The notes under the pieces are model-generated. The model was not told the DNA's origin. It was given only the letters and a program-made list of their open reading frames with translations, and made no database searches. A stretch of 64,000 nucleotides of DNA, from the sequence record OL780484.1; one strand, written 5' to 3'. Every line of letters starts with the position of its first letter. Within the stretch, counting starts at the first letter, position 1. This stretch comes from Escherichia phage vB_EcoM-E33. Shown here piece by piece: positions 12,827-17,153 of the stretch. A program made the translations under genes and the position numbers.

Positions 12827-13048
12827 ATGTTTGTTTTAACTCAATTCTCTAAAGCGGTATATGGTTACTCCTGCCAGTGGGAAGTCTTTATCGATTCTCC
12901 TTCACCTAAGTACGGTGTTTTTGGACGAGTAACTACTCAAGCTTATGTTGCACGGCCGACTAAGCGCCAGCTTCGTAAACTTAAAAAGGCCCATCGCCAA
13001 CTGATTGAAAGAAGGGAACAATATGAGTGCAATGTGTACGGGCTCTAA
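12827..13048 (+). CDS. Hypothetical protein (73 aa)
   Basis: ATG after SD GAGG. Confidence 0.45.
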   Translation: MFVLTQFSKAVYGYSCQWEVFIDSPSPKYGVFGRVTTQAYVARPTKRQLRKLKKAHRQLIERREQYECNVYGL

Positions 13049-13214
13049 GATTTCTGTATTCGAGTTATTCGAAGAATATGAAATCATATCAAAAGACCAA
13101 GAAGCTATCCATATTATTGCTGATGATGGTGTGACTTGGATTATTCCACTTTACCACGAAGATACCTATGAAGTCACTGATGCAAATGGTGATAAAGCTA
13201 TTTTCGTAATATAA
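13023..13214 (+). CDS. Hypothetical protein (63 aa)
   Basis: ATG 13023 after SD AAGAAGGGAA; ORF track 13005..13214 same frame. Confidence 0.4.
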   Translation: MSAMCTGSKISVFELFEEYEIISKDQEAIHIIADDGVTWIIPLYHEDTYEVTDANGDKAIFVI

Positions 13215-13217
13215 ATA
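13210..13217 (+). promoter_or_regulatory. T4-type late promoter TATAAATA
   Basis: Exact TATAAATA ~14 nt upstream of SD AGGAG of the small ORF at 13231. Confidence 0.4.
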
Positions 13218-13230
13218 AGGCCAGGAGCCT

Positions 13231-13392
13231 ATGAAATCTTTTAAAGAAGTTATGAACGAAGATATGGTCGCAGGCGATGCAGGTGGTAACCCATCTAATA
13301 TTGCCTCCGGAACTACCTCAGGCGCGGTCGTCAACAAAGGGCCTGAACAAATCCCATCTAAAAAGCGTAAAGAAAAATCCGAAAACGAATGA
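13231..13392 (+). CDS. Small hypothetical protein (53 aa, Gly/Ser-rich, basic C-terminus)
   Basis: ATG 13231 with SD AGGAG; below 60-aa ORF-track cutoff; preceded by TATAAATA. Confidence 0.35.
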   Translation: MKSFKEVMNEDMVAGDAGGNPSNIASGTTSGAVVNKGPEQIPSKKRKEKSENE

Positions 13393-13430
13393 TATAATGG
13401 CTCTATTAATTTAGAGCCCAAGGAAAAATA

Positions 13431-14459
13431 ATGTCATATGTCGATAGAGAATTTGCTGTACGTGCCTTGAATTACCAACCTAAATTCAGACAAGTAACCG
13501 GTAGTGATTTTAAATTAAACTGCCGTTGTCGTGTATGTGGCGACTCCCTAAAAGATGAGAACAAAGCTCGTTTTTGGGCCTATCCGGCCAATGACGGCTC
13601 CGTAATGCTGCACTGTTTTAACTGTGACTATTCAGCAGGAATTAAGAAGTATCTATACGAATATGAGCCTGATTTATATCGAGAATATATTCTTGAGAAA
13701 CATAAAGAGCAATCGTTCGGGAGACAAGCTGCACCTAAGGTGGAGATATCAGAAAAGATTAAAGCCAAGATGCCTGTCATCGAAAAGCTTAATTTCTGTG
13801 AACGTCTGGATAGAATGCCAAAGGACCATCCTATTATCAAATATGTAACACTACGTTGCATTCCTGAAAACAAATGGAATCGCTTATGGTTTACTAAAGA
13901 ATGGCCGGCATTGGTGAACTCTGTCAATCCAGGGACCTATTCTAAAGAAATGCCTGAGCCTCGTTTGGTTATTCCAATTTTCAATAAGAATAAACAAATT
14001 GAAAGTTTTCAGGGTCGAGCCTTACGTAAAGATGCTCCACAAAAATATATTACAATAAAAGCTCATGACCAAGCTACAAAAATATATGGAATGGATACAG
14101 TTGACGAACGTCAGTTGGTGTGGGTAATGGAAGGCCCTATTGACTCTTTGTTTGTTCCGAATGCAATAGCAATTACTGGCGGGTCGTTGGACTTGGCTAT
14201 GGTTCCATGTAAAGAAACTCGTGCCTGGGTAATGGACAATGAACCCCGCCATCCTGACACAATTAAGCGTATGCAACGATTAGTTGATGCTGGCGAAAGG
14301 GTTCTATTCTGGGACAAGGCTCCATGGCCTTCTAAAGATATAAATGATATGATTATGAAAGATAAAGCTGATATAAATGATGTACTGGCATATATGAAAG
14401 CTAATATAGCCCAAGGTCTAATGGCTAAAATGAGACTTTCAAAATATTCTAAAATTTAG
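13431..14459 (+). CDS. 61: DNA primase gp61 (zinc-binding + TOPRIM)
   Basis: 342 aa, same length as T4 gp61; Cys4 zinc motif CRCRVCGDS…CFNC near N-terminus. Confidence 0.9.
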   Translation: MSYVDREFAVRALNYQPKFRQVTGSDFKLNCRCRVCGDSLKDENKARFWAYPANDGSVMLHCFNCDYSAGIKKYLYEYEPDLYREYILEKHKEQSFGRQAAPKVEISEKIKAKMPVIEKLNFCERLDRMPKDHPIIKYVTLRCIPENKWNRLWFTKEWPALVNSVNPGTYSKEMPEPRLVIPIFNKNKQIESFQGRALRKDAPQKYITIKAHDQATKIYGMDTVDERQLVWVMEGPIDSLFVPNAIAITGGSLDLAMVPCKETRAWVMDNEPRHPDTIKRMQRLVDAGERVLFWDKAPWPSKDINDMIMKDKADINDVLAYMKANIAQGLMAKMRLSKYSKI

Positions 14460-14656
14460 GCAGGAACTCCGCTAAAGAATCCAATTATGCTTAATACGTG
14501 TTCCATTGTAACCGCTGGTAAAATTATCCCTTGGCTAGCGGCTACAGGGACTACTAGAAGATTCCAAAGGAATACGTCTAGCGCAAGAAAACCTAACATC
14601 ATTTTCTTGTCTTTCTTTTCGGCCAATTTCCAGATTTGGTAAAAAATACTGCCCAT
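14456..14656 (-). CDS. Small hydrophobic membrane protein (66 aa), antisense to early gene block
   Basis: Strong SD AGGAGG 6 nt before ATG; exact late promoter TATAAATA upstream on - strand; convergent with gene 61 stop. Confidence 0.55.
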   Translation of the reverse strand: MGSIFYQIWKLAEKKDKKMMLGFLALDVFLWNLLVVPVAASQGIILPAVTMEHVLSIIGFFSGVPA

Positions 14657-14677
14657 GTTATCCTCCTGTTAAATTAA

Positions 14678-14685
14678 TATTTATA
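14678..14685 (-). promoter_or_regulatory. T4-type late promoter TATAAATA (minus strand)
   Basis: Reverse complement of tatttata at 14678-14685; ~20 nt upstream of the antisense gene SD. Confidence 0.5.
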
Positions 14686-14718
14686 ACTTGCTTTACAAAT
14701 TAATGATACAATTATCCC

Positions 14719-15375
14719 ATGAATTACGAAAAAATATACCAGGAATTAATATCTAAAGGAAAATTAAGAGGTTCTAAGCGGTCTTTATCATATTATACGG
14801 AAGAACACCATGTTATACCTAGATGTATGAATGGTTCTGATGATAAAAACAATTTAGTTGCTTTATTGCCAAGAGAACACTTTGTAGCTCATAGGCTTTT
14901 AACAAAAATATATCCCGAAGTAAAAGGTCTACATTATGCTGTTAATTTAATGAGATATAATAAAGGAGTTAAATTAACTAGTAGAACTATAGCCACGTTA
15001 AGAGAAAATAACGCTAAAGCATTTTCAGGAAAAAATAACCCGATGTTTGGTAAACCTTCCTGGATTAGAGGGATGAAAACTCCTGAAGAAACTAAAGCCA
15101 AAATGCGCCTGGCTCATAAAGATAAAATTATATCTGATGAAGCCAAGGCCAATATGAGTAAAGCTAGAAAAGGAAGATTTAGTGGTAAAGATTCCCCTAG
15201 ATATGGTTTGCCGAATCCTAGGCGTGGAGAAATATGGAATAGTTACGATATGCTTTACGAATTATGGGTTTACAATAATAAACCTAAACGCACCAAATTT
15301 AATAAAATAGCTGTTGATAATGGATATCCTGATATTTGTTATCGACGAATGATAGAAAACTTTAATAGGAAATAA
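14719..15375 (+). CDS. Free-standing HNH homing endonuclease (218 aa)
   Basis: HNH motif EEHHVIPRCMNGSDDKNNLVALLPREHFVAH; C-terminal repeated GKNNPMFGKP / GKDSPRYGLPNP DNA-binding-like modules; AT-rich coding sequence; inserted between 61 and 56. Confidence 0.8.
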   Translation: MNYEKIYQELISKGKLRGSKRSLSYYTEEHHVIPRCMNGSDDKNNLVALLPREHFVAHRLLTKIYPEVKGLHYAVNLMRYNKGVKLTSRTIATLRENNAKAFSGKNNPMFGKPSWIRGMKTPEETKAKMRLAHKDKIISDEAKANMSKARKGRFSGKDSPRYGLPNPRRGEIWNSYDMLYELWVYNNKPKRTKFNKIAVDNGYPDICYRRMIENFNRK

Positions 15376-15379
15376 TATA

Positions 15380-15901
15380 ATGGCATTTTTTAACGAATGT
15401 AGTGGTTTGATTTCTGGTGTTGATAAAGCTGAGGAAGCTTATTTTAATGCTCTGATTCATGAAGATAAAGACCCTCTGCAGGTTATGCTTGATATGCAGA
15501 AATCATTACAGGTCCGTTTGGCTACTGAAAAATCTGAATTTAACTCTAACCCCGATGAACTGGCTACTGCAGGTCAAGTTGTCGATTGGCTTCGCAACCA
15601 GAAAGATTATATTGATGACGAATTCCGTGAACTGTTGACTTCTCTTGGTGGCATGAGTAATGGTGAGAAAGCCGCATCTAGCGTCTGGAAGCCTTGGAAA
15701 GCTCAGCACGGTGAATTCCGTAACCGTCGTATTGACGAACTCTCTCCTGAAGACCAGCTTGAAATTAAATTCGAGATGATTGATATTCTGCACTTTGTTC
15801 TGAATATGTTCCAAGGTCTTGGTCTGTCAGCCGAAGAAATCTTTAAGTTGTATTACCTGAAAAACGCTGAGAACTTTGCTCGTCAAGACCGAGGTTATTA
15901 A
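15380..15901 (+). CDS. 56: dCTP pyrophosphatase gp56 (MazG-like dCTPase/dUTPase)
   Basis: 173 aa vs T4 gp56 171 aa; synteny; all-alpha NTP-PPase-like sequence. Confidence 0.75.
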   Translation: MAFFNECSGLISGVDKAEEAYFNALIHEDKDPLQVMLDMQKSLQVRLATEKSEFNSNPDELATAGQVVDWLRNQKDYIDDEFRELLTSLGGMSNGEKAASSVWKPWKAQHGEFRNRRIDELSPEDQLEIKFEMIDILHFVLNMFQGLGLSAEEIFKLYYLKNAENFARQDRGY

Positions 15902-16041
15902 TGCCTCGTTTAAATAAACGTCAACTAAAAAAGTTGAATAAGAAAAGGGCGAAAGCCTTTACTGCCTTATTACGTAATGAAATAACTAAAGAAATAGACC
16001 AAGAGATTATTGAACAACTTTGGAAAGCCGCCAAATTGTAA
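15901..16041 (+). CDS. Small basic hypothetical protein (46 aa)
   Basis: ATG overlapping gp56 stop (TAATG); Lys/Arg-rich; unverified. Confidence 0.3.
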   Translation: MPRLNKRQLKKLNKKRAKAFTALLRNEITKEIDQEIIEQLWKAAKL

Positions 16042-16043
16042 GT

Positions 16044-16051
16044 TATAAATA
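16044..16051 (+). promoter_or_regulatory. T4-type late promoter TATAAATA (soc)
   Basis: Exact TATAAATA 32 nt upstream of soc ATG; SD AAGGAG between. Confidence 0.6.
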
Positions 16052-16082
16052 CACCTGTAATTAAACAACAAAGGAGTTAATT

Positions 16083-16316
16083 ATGGGTGGTTTCGTTAAT
16101 ATCAAAACCTTTACACATCCAGCTGGTGAAGGTAAAGAAGTTAAAGGTACTGAGGTTTCGGTTCCGTTTGAGATTTATTCAAACGAGCACCGTATTGCAG
16201 ACTCTCATTATCAGACTTTCCCTTCGGCCGTTGCAGCCTATACTACTGTAGTGACTGATGCAGCCGATTGGCGAACTAAGAACGCAGCAATGTTCACGCC
16301 GACCCCAGTAGTTTAA
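16083..16316 (+). CDS. soc: Small outer capsid protein Soc
   Basis: 77 aa; GFVNIKTF…YQTFPS motifs match T4 Soc; late promoter upstream. Confidence 0.85.
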   Translation: MGGFVNIKTFTHPAGEGKEVKGTEVSVPFEIYSNEHRIADSHYQTFPSAVAAYTTVVTDAADWRTKNAAMFTPTPVV

Positions 16317-16320
16317 TTAT

Positions 16321-16345
16321 AAGGAACCTTCGGGTTCCTTTTTTT
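16321..16345 (+). terminator. Rho-independent terminator (aaggaacc-UUCG-ggttcctt + T7)
   Basis: 8-bp stem, UUCG loop, TTTTTTT tail right after soc. Confidence 0.7.
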
Positions 16346-16411
16346 GGTTTTAAGGGTTTACTTTCTAGGAAGGCCGTGTTAAGATGGTCTTATCTTATAG
16401 AGGAGAACACT

Positions 16412-16621
16412 ATGTTAAATCGTTGGATTAAACCAAATAAAACTTTGGATGAAATTATCGCTAATCATGTATTGAAAAAGTACTTTTATACTCCTTGGTA
16501 TACCGAAGTTATTGTCCATTCATTTATGATGCATGAAGACGGTTCTATCGAATTTAATGCTGAAATCCGTCACGAGACTGATGATAACGATAAAGTTGAA
16601 TTTAAACGAGGTTTCCTATGA
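16412..16621 (+). CDS. Hypothetical protein (69 aa)
   Basis: ATG 16412 after SD AGGAG; early promoter upstream. Confidence 0.45.
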   Translation: MLNRWIKPNKTLDEIIANHVLKKYFYTPWYTEVIVHSFMMHEDGSIEFNAEIRHETDDNDKVEFKRGFL

Positions 16622-16953
16622 TTCGTTGGCTTAAGAATTTTTTCAAGATTACCCCTGGCGAAGGGCCGGTTCCTATTAGTCCATCAGACGTTAAGTTAAG
16701 GGAATATGTTTATGTGGGCGATGGTATGATGGAAGAAGTTATCCGTCAACCTGAAAAAGCCGGTAATGTAGGCCCGGGTGCCCTTCCTTTGAATTCTAAA
16801 AAGTTTAAAGAGCATCTAGAAGCTCGTCGCACAAGCCATATTGATACTACTCCTATTATGGTTGCGGCTGCTGTCAGTTCTTGGACTGGTGATTCTTCTT
16901 ATTCGTCTTATGACTCAGGAAGCTGTGACTCATCGTCCGGCTCGTGTGATTAA
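16618..16953 (+). CDS. Hypothetical protein (111 aa, Ser-rich C-terminus)
   Basis: ORF track; start overlaps upstream stop. Confidence 0.45.
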   Translation: MIRWLKNFFKITPGEGPVPISPSDVKLREYVYVGDGMMEEVIRQPEKAGNVGPGALPLNSKKFKEHLEARRTSHIDTTPIMVAAAVSSWTGDSSYSSYDSGSCDSSSGSCD

Positions 16954-17153
16954 TGAAACCTTTATCATGGCTTAAAGATTGGCTGGACCGTCCTGGTGAT
17001 TATCTTGATGACGGGTGGTTGGACCAAGCTAATGCAGAAATGAAACGCGAGTCCGAAGAATGGATTCTTAAAGGTATCCGTGAAGAACGCGAAAAGAAAT
17101 TAGAACGCGAAGCTCTTAGAATTATGCGTGACATCTATGGGGATAAATCATGA
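16953..17153 (+). CDS. Hypothetical protein (66 aa, charged/coiled-coil)
   Basis: ORF track; start overlaps upstream stop. Confidence 0.4.

What the first reader, a model, noticed from the sequence alone, without database searches (positions are those of the whole stretch)
14719..15375. Free-standing HNH homing endonuclease inserted between primase gene 61 and gene 56
The HNH catalytic motif plus repeated GKNNP/GKDSP DNA-binding-like modules and AT-rich coding sequence are typical of mobile seg/mob-type endonucleases in T-even phages. It marks a likely recent mobile-element insertion.
Basis: partly seen in the sequence, partly recalled or inferred. Interest (0 to 1): 0.45.

Follow-up and report, generated by a model that had tools for sequence, protein, structure and literature searches.

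The report
Mob-type HNH homing endonuclease gene
This is an ordinary selfish "homing endonuclease" gene of the T4 Mob family that sits just upstream of the dCTPase gene (gene 56) in some JS98-like coliphages and is missing from most close relatives; the identical gene is already annotated in phage IME08.

Summary
ORF 14719-15375 (+, 218 aa) is intact. It has invariant HNH residues (H30, N45, H54, H58), a NUMOD3 match and 32% GC against 40% for the window.

The window is a Dhakavirus (JS98/IME08-like T-even phage). The protein is 100% identical to the IME08 gene annotated "MobE homing endonuclease".

Of 51 phage records that share the left flank, 9 carry the gene and 42 have an empty site. About 650 nt (14717-15366) replace roughly 27 nt of 5' leader between the -10 box of the gene 56 middle promoter and its ribosome-binding site. 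Against QL01, identity is 99-100% up to the junction and 81-90% beyond it.

A 78%-identical homologue occupies the same spot, immediately upstream of gene 56, in Tequatrovirus phages. dN/dS is about 0.1, so the protein is under purifying selection.

Best explanation: a functional free-standing Mob-family HNH homing endonuclease. It probably nicks or cuts the first ~40 nt of gene 56 in genomes that lack it, and is copied in by recombinational repair.

It is not a T4 MobE orthologue. Its full-length architecture matches MobD, and its C-terminal module also matches SegA.

Known kind, low novelty.

The parts
14719..15375 (+). Free-standing HNH homing endonuclease gene (218 aa), T4 Mob family, 100% identical to IME08 'MobE'
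   Evidence: ORF list. PHROG 655 at 2e-54 and Pfam NUMOD3. tblastn 100% to IME08, LQ5, UGJNEcP3/4 and ABTNLS3. dN/dS 0.11-0.15.
14800..14892 (+). HNH catalytic core, aa 28-58 (E28, H30, H31, P34, N45, E53, H54, H58); predicted beta-beta-alpha
   Evidence: Invariant columns in alignments A4 and A6. AF2 strands at 28-31 and 46-49 and a helix at 51-64, with block-mean pLDDT of 92-96 over residues 31-70 and 75-80 over residues 21-30. phmmer alignment to the McrA HNH.
15022..15057 (+). NUMOD3-like module 1 (SGKNNPMFGKPS, aa 102-113)
   Evidence: Pfam NUMOD3 best stretch at aa 100-112; whole-protein score 28.6 bits against a cutoff of 20.4.
15181..15216 (+). NUMOD3-like module 2 (SGKDSPRYGLPN, aa 155-166)
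   Evidence: Read from the sequence. Conserved in the VR5 and Tequatrovirus homologues.
15226..15372 (+). C-terminal ~50-aa helical module (W..YD.LYELW..NNKPKR..F.K.A...GYP..CYRRMIENF), presumed DNA-binding domain; shared with T4 MobD and the GIY-YIG enzyme SegA
   Evidence: BLASTP of aa 160-218 gives MobD 45% (1e-13), SegA 33% (2e-9) and the phage 005 HNH 49% (5e-12). tblastn to the T4 segA 3' end. Helices at 170-217 in the AF2 model at low pLDDT.
14717..15366 (+). Inserted segment relative to empty-site alleles. It replaces about 27 nt of the gene 56 5' leader. The right junction is ambiguous by a few nt.
   Evidence: Alignments with the JS98, dhabil, AnYang, VR5 and Bp7 alleles.
14689..14712 (+). 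T4 middle-promoter-like site (MotA box TGCTTTA, 11 nt, TACAAT). The -10 ends 6 nt before the endonuclease ATG, and there is no Shine-Dalgarno.
   Evidence: Pattern search finds 9 sites in the window against 1.4 expected. The homologous site in fPS-90 is annotated 'predicted middle promoter'. The same promoter precedes gene 56 in empty alleles.
15251..15276 (+). Second middle-promoter-like site inside the 3' part of the endonuclease ORF, 103 nt upstream of the gene 56 ATG. Candidate replacement promoter for gene 56.
   Evidence: Pattern search. A variant, [T/C]GCTTTA-N13-TA[C/T]AAT, is kept in IME08, VR5 and fPS-90. There is precedent for promoters embedded in T4 endonuclease ORFs (PMC2988022).
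15367..15379 (+). AGGAAATAATATA: Shine-Dalgarno and spacer of gene 56. The endonuclease stop codon TAA (15373-15375) lies inside it.
   Evidence: Sequence. Compare the empty alleles, AAGGAAAAATATA-ATG.
15392..15421 (+). Candidate target or immunity region: nt 13-42 of gene 56. This is the most diverged stretch between alleles with and without the endonuclease, next to the invariant GATAAAGCT.
   Evidence: Over SD plus gene 56 nt 1-60, identity is 78-81% against 94-100% for the left flank (gene 61 3' half and small ORF). The Ser8 codon is AGT in 7 of 7 alleles with the endonuclease and 15 of 48 without. Sequence table.
15380..15901 (+). Gene 56 (dCTPase/dUTPase, NTP pyrophosphohydrolase), the downstream host gene and probable target gene
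   Evidence: Pfam dUTPase_2 and PHROG 173. IME08 and JS98 annotation.
14456..14656 (-). Conserved antisense 66-aa hydrophobic ORF between gene 61 and the insert. This is context, not part of the mobile element.
   Evidence: PHROG 2024 at 6e-28. Present in alleles both with and without the endonuclease.
13431..14459 (+). Gene 61 DNA primase (upstream context)
   Evidence: PHROG 47 at 1e-95. Annotation of IME08 and JS98.

Best explanation
The ORF is a functional, free-standing HNH homing endonuclease gene of the T4 Mob family. I call it MobD-like and gene-56-associated.

**Shown:**
- The intact gene occupies the leader between the middle promoter and the ribosome-binding site of gene 56.
- It is present in a minority of otherwise near-identical Dhakavirus genomes.
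- A homologue sits at the same site in Tequatrovirus.
- It evolves under purifying selection.

**Inferred by analogy with T4 MobE, MobA and I-HmuI:**
- During mixed infection, the protein binds a conserved stretch at the 5' end of gene 56 in a co-infecting genome that lacks the gene. Binding would use the NUMOD3 and C-terminal helical modules.
- The N-terminal HNH domain nicks, or possibly cuts, nearby. My best guess for the site is nt ~13-42 of gene 56.
- The lesion becomes a double-strand break, and T4-type recombination-dependent repair copies the endonuclease gene and adjoining gene 56 sequence from the donor.
- The host genome is protected because the leader is replaced and the first codons of gene 56 are recoded.

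**Expression (inferred):**
- The gene is probably transcribed from the captured MotA-type middle promoter.
- The ATG lies 6 nt after the -10 box and has no Shine-Dalgarno. The mRNA would be leaderless or nearly so, and translation weak.
- Gene 56 may be served by a second middle-promoter-like site inside the endonuclease ORF.
For: **Family and active site**
- PHROG 655 at 2e-54 and Pfam NUMOD3 above cutoff.
- BLASTP to T4 MobD gives 35% over 216 aa (2e-39); MobE gives 46% over 129 aa (1e-29).
- The HNH residues are invariant in 26 homologues.
- The AF2 model shows beta-beta-alpha at aa 28-64, with block-mean pLDDT of 92-96 over residues 31-70 and 75-80 over residues 21-30.

**Mobility signatures**
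- Empty sites exist in JS98, dhabil, AnYang and Bp7.
- Only 9 of 51 records that share the left flank extend into the gene.
- Against QL01, gene 61 and the small ORF are 99-100% identical, but identity falls to 81-90% from the junction rightwards.
- VR5 carries an 89%-identical copy behind the native JS98-type promoter, so left-flank breakpoints differ between lineages.
- GC is 32% against 40%.

**Site specificity**
- The homologue lies immediately upstream of gene 56 in fPS-90, Killian, PsgM02F and IME537. This holds whether dam or the small ORF lies upstream.

**Function retained**
- dN/dS is 0.11-0.15 between lineages. There are 0 non-synonymous and 5 synonymous differences against IME08.

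**Target inference**
- The most diverged stretch is the first 60 nt of gene 56.
- Ser8 is AGT in 7 of 7 alleles with the endonuclease against 15 of 48 without. Fisher p = 8e-4, but the samples are not phylogenetically independent.
- Tequatrovirus alleles L022, L034 and L035 lack the endonuclease but keep its right-junction signature, AAAAATAAC-ATGCCACA..TGTAGT. That is what short co-conversion, or deletion between the flanking GAAAGGA repeats, would leave.

**Mechanistic precedent**
- T4 MobE makes a strand-specific nick in T2 nrdB near a polymorphic patch beside a conserved block, and is inherited preferentially (PMC2790892).
- MobA and MobE are nickases, and promoters are embedded in T4 endonuclease ORFs (PMC2988022).
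Against: - No activity, target or inheritance data exist for this protein. I found no paper on it.
- Pfam HNH is below its gathering score (18.4 against 21.4).
- The AGT/GGT/TTG variant of gene 56 also occurs without the endonuclease, in Bp7 and L040. It may be lineage variation rather than immunity.
- Purifying selection and long residence at one site in two genera would also fit a gene that benefits the phage.
- The transcription start and the leaderless mRNA are inferred from spacing only.
Confidence: 0.85

Rival explanations
1. A domesticated or beneficial nuclease. The same HNH protein is kept mainly because it helps the phage, for example by excluding markers of competing T-even phages, or by stimulating recombination or replication near the oriA-equivalent region. 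On this view, spread of its own gene is secondary.
For: dN/dS is about 0.1, and the gene has stayed at the same site in both Dhakavirus and Tequatrovirus while diverging about as much as gene 56 (78% nt identity across the endonuclease gene and gene 56). T4 homing endonucleases contribute to partial exclusion of T2 (PMC2993671). A recent report describes a Seg endonuclease aiding immune evasion (PMC13096335 abstract). In T4 the homologous position is annotated as oriA.
Against: The gene is absent from about 80% of close relatives that share the flank, so it is dispensable. The pattern of presence and absence with flanking breakpoints is the classical selfish-element signature. This reading overlaps with the main explanation rather than excluding it.
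Confidence: 0.2
2. An inactive relic: a former homing endonuclease gene that no longer cuts and is merely carried along.
For: Many T4 endonuclease genes are defective, such as mobA and I-TevIII in T4. This copy has no Shine-Dalgarno and its ATG lies 6 nt from the -10 box, which could reflect decay of expression. The Tequatrovirus copy has 19 more nt carrying an SD and a GTG start.
Against: The ORF is full length in all carriers, every catalytic residue is intact and dN/dS is 0.11-0.15 in both the HNH and DNA-binding halves. There are 0 non-synonymous against 5 synonymous changes relative to IME08.
Confidence: 0.07
3. Not a mobile element at all: an ancestral gene of the 61-56 interval that was deleted repeatedly in most lineages.
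For: The 61-56 interval is a plasticity zone. In different Tevenvirinae it holds dam, a MazG-like ORF and other ORFs. Some Tequatrovirus alleles look like losses of the endonuclease gene.
Against: Empty alleles keep an intact native leader and SD that the carrier allele lacks, so they are not simple deletions of this allele. GC is 7-8 points below the flanks. There is an abrupt identity breakpoint at the junction. The gene belongs to a family with experimentally shown mobility.
Confidence: 0.03

Closest known systems
IME08 'MobE homing endonuclease' (ADI55355.1, GenBank HM071924), with identical copies in phages LQ5, UGJNEcP3/4 and ABTNLS3
   Same: 100% amino-acid identity, the same position between gene 61 and gene 56, and the same flanks.
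   Different: Nothing differs at the protein level; there are 5 synonymous nucleotide differences. The window also has a 46-aa ORF between gene 56 and soc that IME08 lacks.
T4 MobD (NP_049710, free-standing HNH, target unknown)
   Same: This is the best full-length match: 35% over 216 aa, 2e-39. It has the same N-terminal HNH domain and the same C-terminal ~50-aa module, 45% identical.
   Different: The genomic site differs (nrdC.11/mobD.1 in T4). MobD is 259 aa with a longer middle region. Neither protein has a known target.
T4 MobE (NP_049844), the experimentally studied nicking Mob endonuclease
   Same: The N-terminal HNH domain is 46% identical over 129 aa. Both are free-standing and inserted just upstream of the gene they are thought to target. 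In MobE's target, a polymorphic patch lies next to a conserved block near the nick (PMC2790892).
   Different: MobE is 141 aa and lacks the C-terminal module. It lies between nrdA and nrdB and targets nrdB. It has no promoter and carries an internal terminator. The gene here sits directly behind a middle promoter and has no SD. The 'MobE' label in IME08 is a similarity label, not orthology.
Tequatrovirus gene-56-upstream HNH endonuclease (e.g. Yersinia phage fPS-90 g031c, phage Killian, IME537)
   Same: 77-78% amino-acid identity, and the same insertion point immediately upstream of gene 56.
   Different: The Tequatrovirus copy keeps the native leader and SD (GAAAGGA) and starts with GTG. The Dhakavirus copy starts at an ATG 6 nt after the -10 box and is about 19 nt shorter upstream.
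T4 SegF (GIY-YIG, between gene 56 and soc; cuts gene 56)
   Same: Another free-standing endonuclease flanking the same host gene, with gene 56 listed as its target (PMC2988022). AnYang and T4 carry it.
   Different: It belongs to a different catalytic family and sits on the other side of gene 56. It is absent from the window.
I-HmuI (intron-encoded HNH nickase of Bacillus phage SPO1)
   Same: By established knowledge it has an HNH domain plus NUMOD3-type DNA-binding modules in an extended architecture and nicks one strand. It is cited as the model for Mob proteins in PMC2790892.
   Different: It is intron-encoded. No significant sequence or fold match to it was obtained here.

Membership tests
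HNH (beta-beta-alpha-metal) nuclease superfamily | Catalytic His (general base) in strand 1, structural Asn, and metal-binding His in the following helix | tested here: met
   H30, N45, H54 and H58 are invariant in alignments of 25-26 homologues. They align with the EcoKMcrA HNH motif.
HNH (beta-beta-alpha-metal) nuclease superfamily | Profile match above the curated threshold (Pfam PF01844) | tested here: not met
   The score is 18.4 bits against a gathering score of 21.4, E = 0.0025. Some homologues (P0010, P0015, P0027) carry a precomputed PF01844 hit.
HNH (beta-beta-alpha-metal) nuclease superfamily | Beta-beta-alpha fold confirmed by structural similarity to solved HNH nucleases | tested here: inconclusive
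T4 Mob family of free-standing HNH homing endonucleases | Conserved N-terminal Mob-type HNH domain (MNYxKIY...E.HHIIPR...NLV.L..REH..AH.LL.KIY) | tested here: met
   BLASTP to T4 MobD gives 2e-39, MobE 1e-29, MobB 1e-27, MobC 1e-18 and the MobA fragment 1e-8. PHROG 655 gives 2e-54.
T4 Mob family of free-standing HNH homing endonucleases | Free-standing intergenic ORF in the same orientation as its neighbours, sporadically distributed among close relatives | tested here: met
   The ORF lies between the small ORF and gene 56 on the + strand with genes 61 and 56. Nine of 51 records that share the flank carry it. Empty sites are shown.
T4 Mob family of free-standing HNH homing endonucleases | Site-specific nicking or cleavage of the allele lacking the gene, and preferential inheritance in mixed infection | not testable with these tools
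   Only indirect signatures are available: a flank identity breakpoint, linked gene 56 polymorphisms and a conserved insertion site in two genera.
Orthologue of T4 MobE (the name given in the IME08 record) | Location between nrdA and nrdB, and MobE-like full-length architecture (141 aa) | tested here: not met
   It lies between genes 61 and 56. Only aa 1-129 align to MobE. The full length and the C-terminal module match MobD instead.
NUMOD3-containing homing endonucleases | NUMOD3 DNA-binding motif above the Pfam threshold | tested here: met
   PF07460 scores 28.6 bits against a cutoff of 20.4. Two GK(N/D)(N/S)P..G modules are visible in the sequence.
Seg (GIY-YIG) free-standing endonucleases | GIY-YIG catalytic domain | tested here: not met
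   There is no GIY-YIG hit in Pfam or PHROGs. Only the C-terminal ~50 aa resemble the C-terminus of T4 SegA (33%, 2e-9).

The most novel reading that the evidence does not exclude
The Dhakavirus copy has captured the MotA-dependent middle promoter of gene 56. In T4 that promoter also supplies the primer transcript of origin oriA.

On this reading the endonuclease is made from a leaderless mRNA, because the ATG lies 6 nt after the -10 box and has no SD. That would be a mode of endonuclease down-regulation not described for T4 endonuclease genes. A second promoter inside the ORF would restore gene 56 and origin transcription.

Its nick site would coincide with the polymorphic codon 8 of gene 56, the position annotated as oriA in T4. 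Origin R-loop formation or fork passage would then convert the nick into the recombinogenic break.
Probability: 0.12. Interest if true: 0.45.

Novelty: already known. Interest (0 to 1): 0.2.

Why it matters
The finding has little importance as a discovery. The identical gene is already annotated in public genomes, and it belongs to a well-studied class of selfish phage genes.

Its modest value is as a clean natural example of intronless homing. The data include precise empty sites and two independent left-flank breakpoints. They also include likely footprints of endonuclease-gene loss or short co-conversion, and a host gene (gene 56) flanked by endonuclease sites on both sides that is highly mosaic as a result.

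This matters for phage phylogenetics and for the annotation of therapeutic Dhakavirus phages. The 'MobE' label is misleading, and the target of this endonuclease has not been characterised.

Tried and rejected
- **Sequence search of the PDB.** phmmer gave only weak HNH matches: McrA at E = 0.07 and IscB at E = 0.16.
- **Paralogues in the window.** tblastn of the protein against the window found none.
- **Rfam.** A scan of 13000-17000 at E <= 0.1 found nothing, so there is no intron or other known RNA element. The gene is free-standing, not intron-encoded.
- **Generic promoter and terminator scan.** The sigma-70 and terminator scan was uninformative: 10 promoter-like sites against 6.4 expected, and no terminator after gene 61. 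T4-specific motif searches were more useful. The late-promoter octamer is not enriched in the window (6 against 6.5 expected), so that call rests on position only.
- **IMG/VR scan with the endonuclease protein.** This returned only two close relatives, so the association analysis rests on GenBank phage records plus loci found with gp56.
- **Phage vB_EcoM_005.** Its locus is garbled, with duplicated gene 61 and gene 56 fragments. I did not use it as evidence.
- **Orthology to T4 MobE.** Considered and rejected.
- **Terminase-associated HNH.** Considered and rejected. By established knowledge the context is a T4-type replication and early-gene region, and T4-type packaging needs no HNH partner.

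Full report
**1. The observation**

- It contains the HNH signature EEHHVIPRC...KNNLVALLPREHFVAH.
- It contains two GK(N/D)(N/S)P..G modules, at aa 102-113 and 155-166.
- Pfam NUMOD3 passes its curated cutoff (28.6 against 20.4 bits). Pfam HNH is just below its cutoff (18.4 against 21.4).
- PHROG 655, 'homing endonuclease', matches at 2e-54.
- In alignments with 25-26 homologues down to about 26% identity, E28, H30, P34, N45, E53, H54 and H58 are invariant.
- The AT-richness is real. GC is 32.1% against 39.7% for the window, and only 0.8% of equal-sized windows are as low.
- Upstream is gene 61 primase (13431-14459) and downstream is gene 56 dCTPase (15380-15901).

A conserved 66-aa ORF on the opposite strand (14456-14656, PHROG 2024) lies between gene 61 and the endonuclease gene.

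**2. Where the window comes from, and whether the gene is already known**

The region is 98.8% identical to Salmonella phage ABTNLS3 and 95-98% identical to phages LQ5, IME08 and UGJNEcP3/4. These are all Dhakavirus (JS98-like Tevenvirinae).

The protein is 100% identical to the IME08 CDS annotated 'MobE homing endonuclease'. The gene is therefore already in public annotation. I found no paper that characterises it.

**3. It is an insertion: empty sites and junctions**

JS98, JS10, QL01, WG01, C6, dhabil, AnYang and many others match the flanks but lack the ORF. A 111-nt probe across the left junction hit 51 records. Nine extend into the gene, representing 7 genomes plus RefSeq duplicates. The other 42 stop at the junction.

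Two alleles fix the junctions:

- **VR5** carries an 89%-identical copy directly behind the native JS98-type promoter: ...TATAATTATC|CC-ATG.
- **Bp7** lacks the gene but has the window-type promoter followed by an intact leader: ...ATAATTATC|TAACTTATTACCTAATATGAATCGAAA|AGGAAAAATATA-ATG.

From these, about 650 nt (14717-15366) replace about 27 nt of 5' leader. The replaced stretch lies between the -10 box of the gene 56 promoter and the gene 56 Shine-Dalgarno. The endonuclease stop codon (TAA, 15373-15375) lies inside the SD-ATG spacer of gene 56.

**4. Signatures of homing-type gene conversion**

- *Breakpoint against QL01.* Gene 61 and the small ORF are 99-100% identical to the window. Identity then drops to 85% in the promoter region, 81% over the SD plus first 60 nt of gene 56, and 83-90% through the rest of gene 56 and soc. 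This is a recombination breakpoint at the left edge of the insert, with donor-type sequence running rightwards.
- *Different breakpoints in different lineages.* VR5 keeps the JS98-type promoter on the left but shares the window-type codons 8-10 of gene 56 on the right.
- *Gene 56 is mosaic.* It is 69-100% identical across Dhakavirus, while gene 61 is 93-100% among the JS98-type genomes (85-92% in the more divergent VR5 and Bp7). This fits a gene flanked by endonuclease sites on both sides. AnYang and T4 carry segF between gene 56 and soc, and the T4 review lists gene 56 as SegF's target (PMC2988022).

**5. Site specificity across genera**

A 77-78% identical homologue occurs in many Tequatrovirus genomes; 58 records fall in the 60-80% identity band. 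In all four that I opened (fPS-90, Killian, PsgM02F, IME537) it lies immediately upstream of gene 56. This holds whether the upstream neighbour is the small antisense ORF or dam. T4 itself has dam and no endonuclease gene at this spot.

All seven alleles with the endonuclease that I examined have AGT at Ser8 of gene 56, against 15 of 48 alleles without it. Fisher p = 8e-4, but the samples are not phylogenetically independent.

Tequatrovirus alleles L022, L034 and L035 lack the gene but carry its right-junction signature, GAAAGGAAAAATAAC-ATGCCACA..AACGAATGTAGT. Two events would leave exactly this: deletion between the two GAAAGGA repeats that flank the gene, or a short co-conversion tract that stops before the gene.

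Together these observations point to a lesion site in the first ~40 nt of gene 56, next to the invariant GATAAAGCT block. They do not prove it. T4 MobE shows the same layout: a polymorphic patch at the nick site beside a conserved block thought to be bound by the DNA-binding domain (PMC2790892).

One caveat applies. Bp7 and L040 have the AGT-GGT-TTG variant without the endonuclease. The variant could therefore be lineage variation, and the true target could be the replaced leader.

**6. Is the protein functional?**

- dN/dS is 0.11 against the VR5 copy, 0.12 against the fPS-90 copy and 0.15 between VR5 and fPS-90. Values are similar in the HNH half and the DNA-binding half.
- Against IME08 there are 5 synonymous and 0 non-synonymous differences.
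- The ORF is full length in all carriers.

This argues against a decaying relic. dS of 0.5-1.4 also shows the endonuclease lineages are old, even though this genome's acquisition looks recent.

**7. Architecture and family placement**

Against the T4 proteins, the best full-length match is MobD: 35% over 216 aa, 2e-39. MobE (46%), MobB (42%) and MobC (33%) align only over the N-terminal HNH domain.

The C-terminal ~50 aa module reads W..YD.LYELW..NNKPKR..F.K.A..GYP..Y.RMI..F. It is shared with three other proteins:

| Protein | Identity to the module |
|---|---|
| T4 MobD | 45% |
| T4 SegA (GIY-YIG enzyme) | 33% |
| A second HNH ORF in phage vB_EcoM_005 | 49% |

This illustrates the modular build of these enzymes. 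'MobE' in the IME08 record is a similarity label, not orthology.

AF2 models give mean pLDDT of 77 for the full length and 86 for aa 1-100. They show beta-beta-alpha at 28-64 and helical C-terminal modules. Fold searches were not significant, although the top Foldseek ranks are nearly all HNH nucleases.

**8. Expression (inference from sequence)**

A T4 middle-promoter pattern, TGCTTTA-N11-TACAAT, lies at 14689-14712. The pattern occurs 9 times in the window against 1.4 expected. The homologous site in fPS-90 was annotated 'predicted middle promoter' by its depositors. In empty alleles the same promoter precedes gene 56.

In the window the -10 box ends 6 nt before the endonuclease ATG, and there is no Shine-Dalgarno. 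A transcript from this promoter would be leaderless or nearly so. The Tequatrovirus copy instead keeps the native leader and SD (GAAAGGA) and starts at GTG. The Dhakavirus form looks like a deletion between the ATGAATT and GTGAATT repeats.

Weak translation would fit the tight down-regulation known for T4 endonuclease genes (PMC2790892 and PMC2988022).

A second middle-promoter-like site, TGCTTTA-N13-TACAAT at 15251-15276, lies inside the ORF, 103 nt upstream of gene 56. A variant of it is kept in IME08, VR5 and fPS-90. [quoted passage not shown] Because this site is also coding sequence, its conservation alone does not prove promoter function.

**9. Verdict**

Four corrections apply:

- The gene is mob-type, not seg-type.
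- It is MobD-like, not a MobE orthologue.
- It is inserted in the gene 56 leader, downstream of an antisense small gene.
- The endonuclease lineage is old, although this genome's acquisition is recent.

The feature is an ordinary, already annotated member of a well-known class. Its nuclease activity, strand specificity and exact target remain untested.

Noticed in passing
window 14456-14656 (- strand); also L006 4239-4439 (T4): A conserved 66-aa hydrophobic ORF lies antisense to the early genes and overlaps the stop of gene 61 by 4 nt. It has a strong SD (AGGAGGA, 14661-14667 rc) and a TATAAATA late-promoter-like octamer (14678-14685, - strand) right at the left edge of the insert. It matches PHROG 2024, function unknown. 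Divergent homologues occur across Tevenvirinae. T4 has a 66-aa ORF at the same position that is not in the NC_000866 feature table. In phage dhabil the ORF is labelled 'dCTP pyrophosphatase', which looks like a mislabel.
   Followed up: partly
window 15901-16041 (+): A 46-aa basic ORF (PHROG 14392, function unknown) overlaps the gene 56 stop. It is present in the window, ABTNLS3 and dhabil, and absent in IME08, JS98 and QL01. This is a second indel polymorphism, at the 56-soc site where T4 and AnYang carry segF.
   Followed up: partly
L056 (phage Bp7) 543-1298 and 1489-1680: Bp7 has a different Mob-family endonuclease gene (PHROG 655, 37% identical to this one) between gene 61 and the small ORF. 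It also has a ~130-nt patch, covering the promoter and the first 60 nt of gene 56, that is 92-97% identical to the window in a background of 69-85%. It carries no endonuclease gene at the gene 56 site.
   Followed up: partly
window 15402 (gene 56 nt 23); T4 record position 16763: The T4 record annotates replication origin oriA at nt 23 of gene 56, with the gene 56 transcript as primer RNA. That is the same codon (Ser8/Ala8) that is dimorphic (AGT against TCN/GCN) and linked to endonuclease presence here. This could be coincidence.
   Followed up: no
L022, L034, L035 (Tequatrovirus-like IMG/VR loci), about 40 nt either side of the gene 56 ATG: These alleles lack the endonuclease gene but carry its right-junction signature (GAAAGGAAAAATAAC-ATGCCACA...TGTAGT). 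This is consistent with precise loss by recombination between the flanking GAAAGGA repeats, or with co-conversion that stopped short of the gene.
   Followed up: partly
L049 / L057 (phage vB_EcoM_005): The locus is garbled. It has duplicated fragments of gene 61, a 5'-truncated copy of this endonuclease gene (aa 12-218, 99%), two gene 56 copies and a further 265-aa HNH ORF between gene 56 and soc with the same C-terminal module. It may be an assembly chimera of co-existing alleles.
   Followed up: partly
L025, L027, L026, L029, L030, L036, L040, L043, L044 (61-56 interval): In other Tevenvirinae the 61-56 interval holds other cargo: dam, a ~93-aa MazG-like NTP pyrophosphohydrolase (PHROG 4856), a ~108-aa ORF and a ~250-aa secreted protein. 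The interval is a general plasticity zone.
   Followed up: partly
window 14676-14702 and 15238-15264: A 27-nt direct repeat (78% identical) spans the two MotA-box promoter-like sites, one upstream of the endonuclease gene and one inside its 3' part.
   Followed up: no
window 15386-15391 (gene 56 codons 3-4): The window and IME08 read M-A-F-F at the start of gp56, where almost all other Tevenvirinae read M-A-H-F or M-A-Y-F (CAT to TTT). This is an extra change confined to this endonuclease-carrying lineage, next to the junction.
   Followed up: no
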